Below are positions 1 through 3,000 of a DNA stretch of 64,000 nt, piece after piece. Numbering within the stretch: position 1 is the stretch's first letter; each line of letters opens with the position of its first letter. A program made the position numbers. Source of the stretch: Escherichia coli (GTDB lineage Bacteria > Pseudomonadota > Gammaproteobacteria > Enterobacterales > Enterobacteriaceae); assembly GCF_045037415.1 (NCBI RefSeq), contig NZ_CP173440.1; one strand, given 5' to 3'.

Positions 1-3000
1 AGCGTTGCGCACACATGAGCAGGCTCCCGATCGTGTGACCCTTTACCGAATACTGGAGCGGCTAATGCAGGCCAGTATTGTCCAGCGTTATACCGACTCG
101 GCAAGAACTCAGCGTTTCGCTCTGACTCTACGGGCTACCGTAGGACTTTTTGAATGCGATAACTGCCATCATGTTATTCCTATTGAGCGGGAGCCAACCC
201 TGGAAGCGGCCATTGGATTGGTAAAGTCACATCTCACTGGGCATGGTATGACCGAGCTGTGGATCTGCTTGACTTTTCTGCAAACTTGTGGGGAAAATAA
301 AGGTATTTATGACATACCTGTGGTCATCTACCGCAAGGAGTTCCGATAGATGGCCCGCATTTTCTCTCCTCCGGAGAGCATCGGCTCCCCACTTGGCTGT
401 GTGGGCGCAGATAGAACACCAAAGCGCGATGGTGATCTCGCTGTAAGCGGGTTGTGCGCGACGAGGAGGTCGATTTTGACAAACACTCATCACATAGTGA
501 TATACAGGGTCACAGCTGCACACATTGAAGTCGTGAACGTCGTTCATGCCCGCCCTCAGAATAACGAAACAAGGAGAAAACTTTCATGAAATCTCTATTT
601 TCCTCTATCGTTCTGCTTGCTTTGAGCGTCCCCGGGGGGGCTATGGCAGATGAAGTCACCCACACCCAATACGCCTGCGATGACAGCAAAACGCTGGATG
701 TGGTCTACATCGGGGACTATGCTGTCATCCAGCAGATGGATGAGTTGATCCCGATGAAGCGGGCTGTTAGTGGTTCAGGCATGCGCTATGTGCCGCTCAA
801 CAAGGATTACATCTACGAGCTGTGGGGCAAAGGCAGCAACATGAATCTTTCCACCTATGATGGTAAAAAGAACGAAGACATCCTGAGCAACTGCAAGCCG
901 TAAGCATTCAACGAGACAGCCCGTCATAGCCACGACTGCGGTTCCGATCACGCCCTCGGCCCAGCTCTGATTGTCTGTGGGACTGACCTGCAAAACAGGG
1001 GGGGGCTGAAAGATGTCCTGATAGCCTGAGTGGATGGACTCATTGGCTTTCCTGAAGTAGTCAGTGTGCGGAAGTGGATTTCCGTGTCTCGTTGTTGCAC
1101 AAACACGACAACGCCGAATAGCTTCGCGTTTTATTAGGGCGAAGCTTGGAAGAAACACCAACTGCGCCATGTCTTTACCCGCAGCCAAGATGCCGATGCA
1201 ACCCAGCAGATGCTACAGTTCAGGCGTAACAAAGCCACCGTTGGATCGCATCACAGCGCGCCGTTGCGATAACGGCTCAGCGTGGCAATCACTTCACTCA
1301 AAGGTTTATCGCTGAAGCTCAGAATGCCCTGCGACCAAGCGGCGCTTTCATCATCCACTGAGGCTATTGCACCAAATTCAGGCGCGCTAAACTGCAGACT
1401 CTCGCTTTCAAGGCCATGTACCAGATCAAATCGCGACTAATACATCTTATCCTTAAGCCCGGTCTTTCAGACGATCCAGTTTTTCAACTTTCTGACGAAT
1501 ACGTTGTTGTTTCAACGGTGACAGATAATCCATAAACAGTTTACCAACCAAGTGATCCATCTCATGCTGAATACAGATGGCTAACAAGCCGTCTGCTTCC
1601 AGTTCAAATGGTTTACCGTAGCGGTTCAGGGCGCGAATTTTCACTTTCTCTGCGCGTGGCACTAAAGCACGTTGTTCAGGGATCGACAGGCAACCTTCTT
1701 CAATGCCTGTTTCGCCGCTTTTTTCTAAAAGCTCCGGATTGATTAACACCAGCCGTTCGTCACGGTTTTCCGAAACATCAATAACAATGATACGTTGATG
1801 GATATCAACTTGGGTTGCCGCCAAGCCAATACCTTCTTCTGCATACATCGTCTCAAACATATCATCGACGATACGCTGAATTTCTGCATTCACTTCTTCT
1901 ACCGGTTTAGCAACTTTGCGAAGCCGCTCGTCCGGAATATGTAACACTTGCAAAACTGACATAAATCTCCAGAGATATGTTAAGGGGTTAGAACGATTAT
2001 TTTTCTATTCTAGACAAATCCCACTCTAATTAACAGCATTGTAGTAGTTTACTGAATTTGACCACTGAACAGAGGTGATGTGGTCGTCTCTGTTCAGGTG
2101 CATCAATGAAAACAAAGATTATCTAAATAGCTGCGCCGAATACCGCTACACTTTAACCAGCGCTGCGTTTCCCGGCTTTGTCCACGTCCGCCTGATGGCT
2201 TGCGCCCGCCGATACGTCGCTTTAAGCCGCTTCAGCAGGCTGATGAACAGCGCCGAACTTTTGCTGTTGCCGCCTACATAGCTGACTTTACCTGTTCCGC
2301 TGTGCAGTGCGCCAGCCAGATAATATTTTTCATTCTGACCAAGCGTCACCACTCGTTTTTGCTGTCCGCGCAACTGCCAGTCCGAACCGATTTTGGGATT
2401 AAGATGGATATCCACCTCATCTTCATAAAAAACCGGATATTTTGCGCTGCATTCGTCCAGTGCTTTGTGGATTGTCACCATCTTTTCATCCTTATGCGGG
2501 TCACGGATTCGCAGAGTTGGCGCGGCCCTGCGCCACACAAGCTCCGCAGAAGGCAACCAGCGGCGAACGGTTCCTGCATGTAACTGGCTGCCGGTTATCT
2601 CATTGATTTTGATTGCCAGAATTTTGTACTCCAGCGTGAGCGCTGGTAGCCAAAATCGCCGGGAGCATGTTTTACAAGCTCACGTAATTAAGTCCTTTTG
2701 CCCCCGCTCGGGGCTTTCCGGTTCAGGCCGGAGCTGGACGCTTCGGCATTAACCCTGACACAAACCGAACAGTATTGCCTTGTTCTACGCATGGTTGCGA
2801 AATAGCTACAAAAGTGAGAATATTAATAATAATGAATATCATTTTCAATGTTTGTTCGCATGGTCCACACCACAGGCTTCAGCAGCGACGTGACTTTGCA
2901 GCCTTTACCGGCCAGCACCTGCTGTACTGCATTTTCCGGTACGCGGGTTGACCCAGCCTGCATCGAGAGGAGGCTGGCAAACGCCACGCAGGTTCCGAGA

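What the first reader, a model, noticed from the sequence alone, without database searches (positions are those of the whole stretch)
1453..1962. Stand-alone plasmid-borne peptide deformylase without fmt, flanked by gene remnants
The 169-aa Def is near-identical along its length to the chromosomal enterobacterial enzyme. It is not followed by fmt, and lies between a FecR-like fragment and an IS630 remnant. A captured second def copy could affect sensitivity to deformylase inhibitors.
Basis: partly seen in the sequence, partly recalled or inferred. Interest (0 to 1): 0.3.

Follow-up and report, generated by a model that had tools for sequence, protein, structure and literature searches.

The report
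Known E. coli-type deformylase on Klebsiella plasmid
The Klebsiella hypervirulence plasmid carries an intact extra copy of the protein-maturation enzyme peptide deformylase, picked up long ago from an E. coli-like chromosome without its partner gene fmt; this is real, but it is already annotated and already surveyed in the literature, so it is ordinary.

Summary
Window 1453-1962 (-) is an intact 169-aa peptide deformylase (TIGR00079, E=3e-65). It lies between a 50-aa FecR fragment and an internally deleted IS630 remnant. There is no fmt anywhere in the 64-kb window. The window is plasmid DNA: bases 1-5600 are 100% identical to pK2044 of K. pneumoniae NTUH-K2044.

The gene sits in a 595-bp block (1445-2039) of Escherichia-type chromosome. 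The block is 96.6% identical to E. coli def and only 81% identical to the Klebsiella host def. It ends 8 nt after the stop codon and starts 3 nt upstream of the native -35-like hexamer.

All catalytic motifs and all actinonin-contact residues are wild type, including Arg97. Any effect on inhibitors could therefore only come from gene dosage.

Polarised substitutions show a fast-evolving copy: 17 derived substitutions plus one 1-nt deletion, against 2 on the E. coli branch. Only 2 of 10 coding changes alter the protein (P=0.006), which indicates purifying selection.

The block is shared by KpVP-1 and KpVP-2 plasmids. Separate def fragments occur on ETEC and ColV plasmids.

It is already known: LV116 of pLVPK, and pK2044 is listed in the 2025 survey of accessory deformylases. 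Whether it is expressed or beneficial remains untested.

The parts
1453..1962 (-). def coding sequence: 169-aa peptide deformylase, NCBI protein WP_004145290.1, gene LV116 of pLVPK. Motifs G44-IGLAAT-Q51, E89-GCLS93 and H133-EMD-H137 are intact (full-length numbering).
   Evidence: Annotated as def in pK2044, pLVPK and p130-1.
1445..2039 (-). The whole 595-bp block of Escherichia-type chromosomal DNA. It holds 77 nt of native leader, def, and the first 8 nt of the def-fmt spacer.
   Evidence: 96.6% identity to the E. coli chromosome with sharp loss of homology at both ends. 94.5% to E. albertii and 81-85% to other genera.
1963..2039 (-). Native def leader. It has a -35-like CTGTTA (2036..2031; CTGTCA in E. 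coli), an 18-nt spacer, a -10-like TAGAAT (2012..2007) and a Shine-Dalgarno GGAG (1970..1967). It carries 8 derived changes that are absent from E. coli, E. albertii and Citrobacter.
   Evidence: The plasmid version falls below the scan threshold. The orthologous E. coli site passes it.
1254..1403 (-). Internal fragment of a fecR gene (profile positions 216-265 of 313). It is a pseudogene scrap immediately downstream of def, where fmt would lie.
   Evidence: PGAP annotation.
2040..2122 (.). 83-nt scrap of a third locus. It has a stable hairpin (2097..2065) and, on the + strand, the first six codons of a gene (ATGAAAACAAAGATTATC) cut off by the IS630 end. Similar sequences occur on E. coli plasmids.
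2123..2687 (-). IS630 remnant. It is about 90% identical to Shigella IS630. The transposase gene lacks its 5' part and has an internal deletion that fuses it to the element's right terminal repeat, which ends at about 2123.
   Evidence: PGAP lists it as 'IS630 family transposase, frameshifted, incomplete'.
3715..4938 (-). Context only: an MFS transporter gene (shiF-like), divergent from iucA, on the same strand as def. A Klebsiella aerobactin plasmid with 97.8%-identical iucA, which lacks def, shares homology with the window only from 3781 onwards.

Best explanation
The locus is a 595-bp piece of an Escherichia coli-type chromosome. It carries def with its own ribosome-binding site and most of its promoter. 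It became embedded in the IS-scarred mosaic between the lysozyme-inhibitor gene and the shiF-iucABCD-iutA aerobactin locus. This happened on an ancestor of the KpVP-1 and KpVP-2 hypervirulence plasmids.

**Shown.**
- It encodes a catalytically complete type-1 peptide deformylase.
- The copy has evolved faster than chromosomal def at silent and leader positions, while its protein has been conserved.
- It has the inhibitor-sensitive active site.

**Inferred.**
- The enzyme removes the N-formyl group from nascent chains that were formylated by the host's chromosomal Fmt, so it needs no fmt in cis.
- It acts as a redundant second Def alongside the host enzyme.
- It has been a working enzyme for much of its history.
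- It persists today mainly because it is linked to the aerobactin locus on successful plasmids.
- It could change inhibitor susceptibility only through modest extra dosage.
For: **Identity and integrity.**. All residues that are invariant in 80 gammaproteobacterial Defs are retained. The two derived substitutions fall at naturally variable positions: N occurs at 113 in 27 of 80 sequences, and position 115 is highly variable.

**Origin and boundaries.**

**Host copy is different.**

**Plasmid location.**

**Derived changes, polarised with E. albertii and two Citrobacter outgroups.**
- The plasmid branch has 10 coding changes, 7 leader substitutions and 1 leader deletion. The E. coli branch has 2 changes.
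- By my arithmetic this gives a relative-rate chi-square of (17-2)^2/19 = 11.8.
- Of the 10 coding changes, 8 are silent and 2 are replacements. A simulation matched to the observed mutation spectrum expects 6.35 replacements, P(<=2)=0.006.
- None of 5,426 complete E. coli genomes has a chromosomal def closer than 96.6%, so the derived states are not E. coli polymorphisms.

**Age and spread.**
- The same junctions and the identical protein are present in Kp52.145 plasmid II, a KpVP-2 plasmid. Capture therefore predates that split.
- 610 PLSDB plasmids carry the block at >=99% identity. 596 carry iucA at >=99%.

**Experimental hints from the literature.**
- A Tn5 insertion in this gene in strain Kp52145 was viable. 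It was among 114 mutants that activated NF-kB.
- A second canonical PDF copy gives a moderate gain in actinonin MIC in V. cholerae.
Against: - No expression data were found.
- The -35-like hexamer is weakened from 4/6 to 3/6 matches, and the consensus scan finds no promoter upstream of the plasmid copy.
- The gene sits among pseudogene scraps.
- A 3,954-bp segment containing it was lost during in-host evolution of an ST147 strain, with no stated cost.
- A Klebsiella aerobactin plasmid with 97.8%-identical iucA lacks it.
- The sister copies on E. coli plasmids look relaxed or dead. The ETEC copy has 2 replacements among 3 coding changes. The ColV copy is a frameshifted fragment.
- Part of the long branch could have accumulated in an unsampled chromosomal donor. 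In that case the purifying-selection signal would not refer to the plasmid phase.
- The NF-kB mutant was never complemented.
Confidence: 0.65

Rival explanations
1. Pure passenger. The def block is a silent or functionally irrelevant scrap. It is intact only because it is small and the plasmid lineage is young. It is carried along by the aerobactin locus.
For: - It is embedded in FecR and IS630 debris.
- The -35-like hexamer is mutated and no promoter passes the scan.
- It is dispensable in vivo and in transposon libraries.
- It is absent from a Klebsiella aerobactin plasmid with 97.8%-identical iucA.
- The ColV homologue is a pseudogene.
- The KpVP-1 and KpVP-2 copies differ by a single silent change, so there has been little recent time for decay.
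Against: - The 8:2 silent-to-replacement ratio on a long, accelerated branch is unlikely for an unconstrained sequence (P=0.006).
- There is no stop codon, frameshift or motif damage, despite 3.4% divergence and 10% divergence in the adjacent leader.
Confidence: 0.2
2. Infection-related adaptive accessory Def. Extra deformylase capacity is selected in hypervirulent strains. One route is lowering the release of N-formyl peptides that alert the host. Another is buffering the oxidation-labile Fe(II) enzyme during iron starvation or oxidative stress.
For: - A Tn5 insertion in this gene made Kp52145 activate NF-kB in epithelial reporter cells.
- The gene is statistically associated with the liver-invasive hypervirulent genotype.
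- It lies next to iron-uptake genes, and further upstream to a putative metal-starvation cluster.
- There is purifying selection on the protein.
Against: - The association with hypervirulence is explained by physical linkage to iuc.
- The mutant was one of 114 and was never complemented or followed up.
- No Fur box above background lies upstream of def: best 12-14 of 19 matches, against 16 of 19 at iucA.
- The protein is essentially E. coli wild type, with no change at the metal ligands.
Confidence: 0.1
3. Resistance determinant against deformylase inhibitors. The plasmid copy would protect the cell from actinonin-like compounds.
For: - Accessory PDFs on mobile elements can confer actinonin or LBM415 resistance.
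- Adding a canonical copy gives a moderate MIC gain.
Against: - The published insensitivity signature (R97Y, with L125F, E87Q and I86G) is absent. The plasmid enzyme has R97, L125, E87 and I86.
- The active site is identical to the actinonin-sensitive E. coli enzyme.
- The promoter is weakened.
Confidence: 0.05

Closest known systems
Chromosomal def of the E. coli def-fmt operon (type 1B PDF; PDB 1BS5, 3K6L)
   Same: The protein is 98-99% identical. All three catalytic motifs, the C-terminal helix, the Shine-Dalgarno and the -10 element are retained.
   Different: - It is on a plasmid in Klebsiella.
- It is cut 8 nt after the stop codon, so there is no fmt.
- It has 17 derived substitutions plus a 1-nt deletion, including D113N, D115Y and a -35 change.
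- Several optimal CTG Leu codons are replaced by TTG.
Plasmid-borne accessory PDFs of Enterobacteriaceae, surveyed by Lamberioux et al., Mol Biol Evol 2025 (PMC12690207)
   Same: It is literally a member of that set. pK2044 (NC_006625.1) is in the paper's Table S2. The paper reports that most PDF plasmids are from K. pneumoniae and carry the E. coli-type PDF.
   Different: - The paper calls these copies identical to the E. coli gene. The Klebsiella allele is in fact 3.4% diverged in DNA and differs by 2-3 residues.
- The paper did not describe the boundaries, the flanks or the rate asymmetry.
Def2 of Vibrio cholerae and integron-cassette PDFs (inhibitor-insensitive accessory PDFs)
   Same: An additional PDF gene carried on a mobile element, probably active.
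   Different: - It lacks the R97Y, L125F and E87Q signature that lowers actinonin binding.
- It is not a cassette and has no attC site.
- It is a recent copy of a canonical enzyme rather than a distinct clade.
def-fmt' block of ETEC plasmids (pETEC_80) and the def pseudogene next to tsh on ColV plasmids
   Same: These are E. coli chromosomal def fragments on IncF virulence plasmids. They sit beside IS remnants: IS91 and IS630 family on the ETEC plasmids, IS66 on the ColV plasmids.
   Different: - **ETEC block:** 760 bp, 99.2% identical to E. coli, keeps 103 nt of fmt and the whole def-dprA spacer.
- **ColV block:** 439 bp, truncated and frameshifted.
- Both fall within E. coli diversity and are no closer to the Klebsiella allele (95.7-96.0%) than the chromosome is. 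They are probably separate captures.
Other housekeeping paralogues captured on enterobacterial virulence plasmids, for example lpxM/msbB2
   Same: A chromosomal core gene copied into a virulence-plasmid mosaic. An lpxM pseudogene sits 0.8 kb from def-fmt' on pETEC_80.
   Different: msbB2 has a documented contribution to lipid A acylation in Shigella (my own knowledge, not tested here). No role has been shown for the plasmid def.

Membership tests
Peptide deformylase (Pfam PF01327; NCBIfam TIGR00079) | Whole-protein score above the curated cut-off | tested here: met
   TIGR00079 scores 218.6 bits against a cut-off of 103.95. PF01327 scores 176.8 bits against 22.8.
Peptide deformylase (Pfam PF01327; NCBIfam TIGR00079) | Motif 1 G-x-G-x-A-A-x-Q, motif 2 E-G-C-L-S (Cys metal ligand), motif 3 H-E-x-x-H (two His ligands and the catalytic Glu) | tested here: met
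   G44, G46, Q51, E89, C91, L92, H133, E134 and H137 are present. Each is identical to the residue that is invariant in 80 homologues. The alignment to the E. coli structure is.
Peptide deformylase (Pfam PF01327; NCBIfam TIGR00079) | Deformylase activity on nascent formyl-Met peptides | not testable with these tools
   Inferred from 98-99% identity to the crystallised, characterised E. coli enzyme.
Canonical def-fmt operon | fmt immediately downstream of def | tested here: not met
   Homology ends 8 nt after the stop codon and a fecR fragment follows. There is no Fmt match in the 64-kb window.
Inhibitor-insensitive accessory PDFs (Def2VCH and integron type) | Arg97 replaced by Tyr, with L125F, E87Q and I86G (mature numbering) | tested here: not met
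   The plasmid Def has R97, L125, E87 and I86. The signature is defined in PMC12690207.
KpVP-type (pLVPK/pK2044) hypervirulence plasmid | Sequence identity to the reference plasmids, and linkage to iucABCD-iutA, rmpA2, peg-344 and the ter operon | tested here: met
   - Window 1-5600 is 100% identical to pK2044.
- Window 1-49967 is 99.6% identical to a pK2044-like plasmid annotated with iuc, rmpA2, a DMT transporter and terABCDE.
- pLVPK is 100% identical over the def block.
IS630-mediated composite or IS-bounded transposable unit carrying def | Intact IS ends or target duplications bracketing the captured block | tested here: not met
   - There is only one defective IS630 copy.
- Its right end lies 83 nt away from the block.
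- The other side is an internal fecR fragment.
- No IS end is visible at either junction.

The most novel reading that the evidence does not exclude
The E. coli-type Def has been kept under protein-level selection on Klebsiella virulence plasmids because a second deformylase helps during infection. It could do so by reducing the formyl-peptide or NF-kB alarm signals, or by securing deformylation when the Fe(II) enzyme is starved or oxidised. That would make it a small, overlooked virulence-plasmid fitness factor rather than debris.
Probability: 0.1. Interest if true: 0.5.

Novelty: already known. Interest (0 to 1): 0.17.

Why it matters
As it stands it matters little. The gene has been annotated since pLVPK was sequenced. 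It has been used as a hypervirulence-associated marker. It is included in a 2025 survey of accessory deformylases.

Two practical points remain.
- Anyone developing deformylase inhibitors against Klebsiella should know that hypervirulent strains carry two def genes. The second one is of the inhibitor-sensitive type.
- Essentiality screens in these strains may score chromosomal def as dispensable.

The evolutionary detail found here gives a concrete reason to test whether the copy is expressed and useful. That detail is a fast-evolving copy whose protein is nevertheless conserved, captured before the KpVP-1/KpVP-2 split.

Tried and rejected
- **Chromosomal rather than plasmid origin.** Rejected.
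- **fmt just outside the ORF or elsewhere in the window.** Rejected.
- **Duplicate of the host def.** Rejected: 81% DNA and 92% protein identity.
- **Donor search in species-representative genomes.** It is more distant (94.5%) than E. coli. E. fergusonii, E. marmotae and E. ruysiae could not be sampled.
- **Donor search in metagenomes with a 22-mer carrying three plasmid-specific SNPs.**
  - Five of six hits were the same plasmid context.
  - The sixth (L098, 1.3 kb) first looked like a chromosomal dprA-def-fmt context with the plasmid allele.
  - The alignment shows a three-way mosaic of K. pneumoniae chromosome, plasmid def (with a 24-nt gap) and E. coli chromosome.
  - It is an assembly chimera and was discarded.
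- **Promoter and terminator scans.** Nothing passed the threshold around the plasmid def.
- **Fur-box scan.** Only background-level matches upstream of def.
- **Rfam scan of the whole window.** No hits.
- **IS-bounded transposon model.** No matching ends.
- **Literature search for essentiality or expression data on the plasmid def.** Nothing useful.
- **Accessions FO834905 and FO834906.** Not found. The NZ_ version worked.
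Full report
**1. What is there**

The minus-strand ORF 1453..1962 encodes a 169-aa protein.
- It scores 218.6 bits on NCBIfam TIGR00079 (cut-off 104) and 176.8 bits on Pfam PF01327 (cut-off 22.8).
- It aligns end to end with the crystallised E. coli peptide deformylase, differing at three positions: D113N, D115Y and A167D in full-length numbering.
- One E. coli chromosomal allele already has D167, which leaves two differences.
- Every residue that is invariant in 80 gammaproteobacterial homologues is present. These include the Gly and Gln of motif 1, E-G-C-L of motif 2, and H-E-x-x-H of motif 3.
- The two derived substitutions fall at positions that vary naturally.

**2. Where the window comes from**

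- Window 1000-2600 is 100% identical to pK2044 of K. pneumoniae NTUH-K2044 and to hundreds of related plasmids.
- Window 1-5600 is 100% identical to pK2044, and 1-49967 is 99.6% identical to a pK2044-like plasmid.
- That plasmid's annotation shows shiF-like MFS, iucABCD-iutA, rmpA2, vapBC, a DMT transporter and the ter operon.

This is the KpVP-1 type hypervirulence plasmid, so the 'chromosomal' refutation fails.

**3. Anatomy of the captured block**

Homology to the E. coli chromosome covers exactly window 1445-2039. That is 595 bp at 96.6% identity.
- **Downstream end.** Homology stops 8 nt after the TAA stop codon, inside the 14-nt def-fmt spacer. What follows is an internal fragment of fecR (profile positions 216-265 of 313), not fmt.
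- **No fmt.** tblastn with E. coli Fmt finds nothing in the 64-kb window.
- **Upstream end.** Homology starts 3 nt before the -35-like hexamer of a promoter-like site. The consensus scan detects this site in E. coli as CTGTCA-18-TAGAAT.
- **Plasmid promoter.** The plasmid copy keeps TAGAAT and the GGAG ribosome-binding site but has CTGTTA at -35. It therefore drops below the scan threshold.
- **The 83-nt scrap.** Upstream of the block lie 83 nt of a third locus. They contain a stable hairpin (-20 kcal/mol, z=-2.9). On the opposite strand they hold the first six codons of a gene.
- **IS630.** The scrap is truncated by the right end of an IS630 copy. That copy has lost its 5' part and has an internal deletion.
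- **No mobile-element ends.** No IS end or target duplication brackets the def block, so the junctions look like illegitimate-recombination or deletion scars.

**4. Relation to other def genes**

- The host's own chromosomal def is only 81% identical in DNA and 92% in protein.
- E. albertii is 94.5% identical. Citrobacter and other genera are 81-85%.
- No chromosome among 5,426 complete E. coli genomes exceeds 96.6%.

I polarised the differences using E. albertii and two Citrobacter species as outgroups.
- Almost all changes are derived on the plasmid copy. There are 7 substitutions and one 1-nt deletion in the 77-nt leader, which is otherwise invariant across E. coli, E. albertii and Citrobacter. 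There are 10 substitutions in the coding sequence.
- The E. coli branch has 2 changes.
- By simple arithmetic this gives a relative-rate chi-square of 11.8.
- Of the 10 coding changes, 8 are silent. Three of those convert CTG Leu codons to TTG. Two are replacements.
- Random mutation with the same spectrum gives a mean of 6.35 replacements, with P(<=2)=0.006.

The copy has therefore evolved fast at silent and regulatory positions while its protein stayed constrained. One caveat applies: part of that branch could have accrued in an unsampled chromosomal donor. Neither the species-representative genome scan nor a metagenome scan for a plasmid-specific 22-mer found such a donor. The one apparent chromosomal hit was an assembly chimera.

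**5. History on plasmids**

- Kp52.145 plasmid II (KpVP-2) has the same FecR'-def-scrap-IS630 end arrangement and the identical protein. It shows one silent difference in def, against about 1% divergence in the iuc genes. Capture therefore predates the KpVP-1/KpVP-2 split.
- A swine Klebsiella aerobactin plasmid whose iucA is 97.8% identical to the window's lacks the block. It shares homology only from window 3781 onwards.
- In PLSDB, 610 plasmids carry the block at >=99% identity and 596 carry iucA at >=99%.
- E. coli plasmids carry other def fragments.
  - ETEC and other IncF plasmids have a 760-bp def-fmt' block. It is 99.2% identical to E. coli, keeps 103 nt of fmt, and is followed by IS91 and IS630-family remnants and an lpxM pseudogene.
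  - ColV plasmids have a frameshifted 439-bp def fragment next to tsh.
  - These fragments are no closer to the Klebsiella allele than the chromosome is. I read them as separate captures.

**6. How it most likely works**

The enzyme needs only formylated nascent chains. The host's chromosomal Fmt supplies these, so a stand-alone def is mechanistically unproblematic.
- **Shown:** an intact catalytic apparatus, a retained ribosome-binding site and -10 element, and protein-level constraint.
- **Inferred:** expression and activity.
- **Literature hints:**
  - A viable Tn5 insertion in this gene (LV116 homologue) in Kp52145 was among 114 mutants that activated NF-kB. It was not complemented (PMC4505419).
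  - The gene is associated with the liver-invasive genotype, as expected from its linkage to iuc (PMC9372168).
  - A 3,954-bp segment including it was lost during in-host evolution of an ST147 strain (bioRxiv 10.1101/2024.02.13.580130).
- **Regulation:** no Fur box above background lies upstream.

**7. Inhibitor question**

Lamberioux et al. 2025 (PMC12690207) showed that accessory PDFs lower actinonin susceptibility mainly through R97Y, helped by L125F and E87Q. They also showed that an extra canonical copy gives only a moderate gain. The plasmid enzyme has R97, L125, E87 and I86. It is the sensitive type, and only a small dosage effect is plausible.

**8. Novelty**

- The same paper reports 676 PDF-bearing replicons in PLSDB. 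[quoted passage not shown]
- pK2044 is listed in its Table S2.
- The gene has been annotated since pLVPK, as LV116.

The finding is therefore already known. What this analysis adds:
- the exact boundaries and the composition of the flanks;
- the correction that the Klebsiella allele is not identical to the E. coli gene;
- the rate asymmetry combined with protein conservation;
- the dating of the capture to before the KpVP-1/KpVP-2 split.

**9. Verdict**

This is a correct but ordinary observation. Interest is low. A modest open question remains about whether the copy is expressed and beneficial.

Noticed in passing
window 1-349 (+), continuing upstream of the window; L001 1-5350: The ORF that runs off the window start is a borderline Fur-family protein (PF01475, 22.5 bits against a cut-off of 23.1). 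Upstream of it lie a CobW/COG0523 GTPase, a HisI-like pseudogene, a second GTP-binding pseudogene, a SAM methyltransferase and a FecCD-type ABC transporter. Together they look like a metal-starvation (Zur/Fur-type) island next to the aerobactin locus.
   Followed up: partly
window 2040-2122: This 83-nt scrap has a stable hairpin (-20 kcal/mol, z=-2.9) and a truncated gene start (MKTKII) on the + strand. Similar hairpin-plus-start sequences recur on E. coli plasmids (L003 12572-12624, L004 2192-2239). It may be a conserved leader or operator of a small plasmid gene family.
   Followed up: partly
window 2399-2840 versus L102 12376-13930: In KpVP-2 (Kp52.145 plasmid II), and in metagenome contig L094, this 442-bp part of the IS630 remnant is replaced by 1,555 bp encoding three hypothetical proteins. 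The flanks are otherwise 99% identical.
   Followed up: partly
L098 (metagenome contig OGCZ01009986.1, 1294 bp): This is a three-way chimeric assembly of K. pneumoniae chromosomal dprA and leader, the plasmid def body (with a 24-nt gap), and the E. coli def 3' end with the fmt start. It shows how paralogous def copies can mislead metagenome assemblers.
   Followed up: yes
window 1445-2039: The derived substitutions on the plasmid copy are skewed towards C>T on the def sense strand (9 C>T against 2 G>A, counted). This could reflect transcription- or single-strand-associated deamination. The numbers are small, and no significance test was run.
   Followed up: partly
L003 7079-7588, L086 3480-3989 (ETEC and IncF plasmids); L087 3548-3939 (ColV): The ETEC-plasmid Def (WP_000115001.1) has two replacements, Q29R and E43K, among three coding changes. 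E43K is adjacent to motif 1. The ColV copy is frameshifted and truncated beside tsh. The def copies that reside in E. coli hosts therefore look relaxed, unlike the Klebsiella one.
   Followed up: partly
PMC12690207, text versus window 1453-1962: The 2025 survey describes the enterobacterial plasmid PDFs as identical or 'exact' copies of the E. coli chromosomal gene. The dominant Klebsiella allele actually differs by 2-3 residues and 3.4% of its DNA.
   Followed up: yes
window about 20987-26430 (from the annotation of a 99.6%-identical plasmid): A DUF3800 protein, a TIR-domain protein and a KAP-family P-loop NTPase sit together next to vapBC. This is a possible anti-phage defence cluster on the virulence plasmid.
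   Followed up: no
L086 4294-5851 (pETEC_80): The def-fmt' block on ETEC plasmids is followed by IS91 and IS630-family fragments, and then by an lpxM (msbB2-like) pseudogene, virK and capU. A second captured housekeeping paralogue therefore lies within 1 kb of the first.
   Followed up: no
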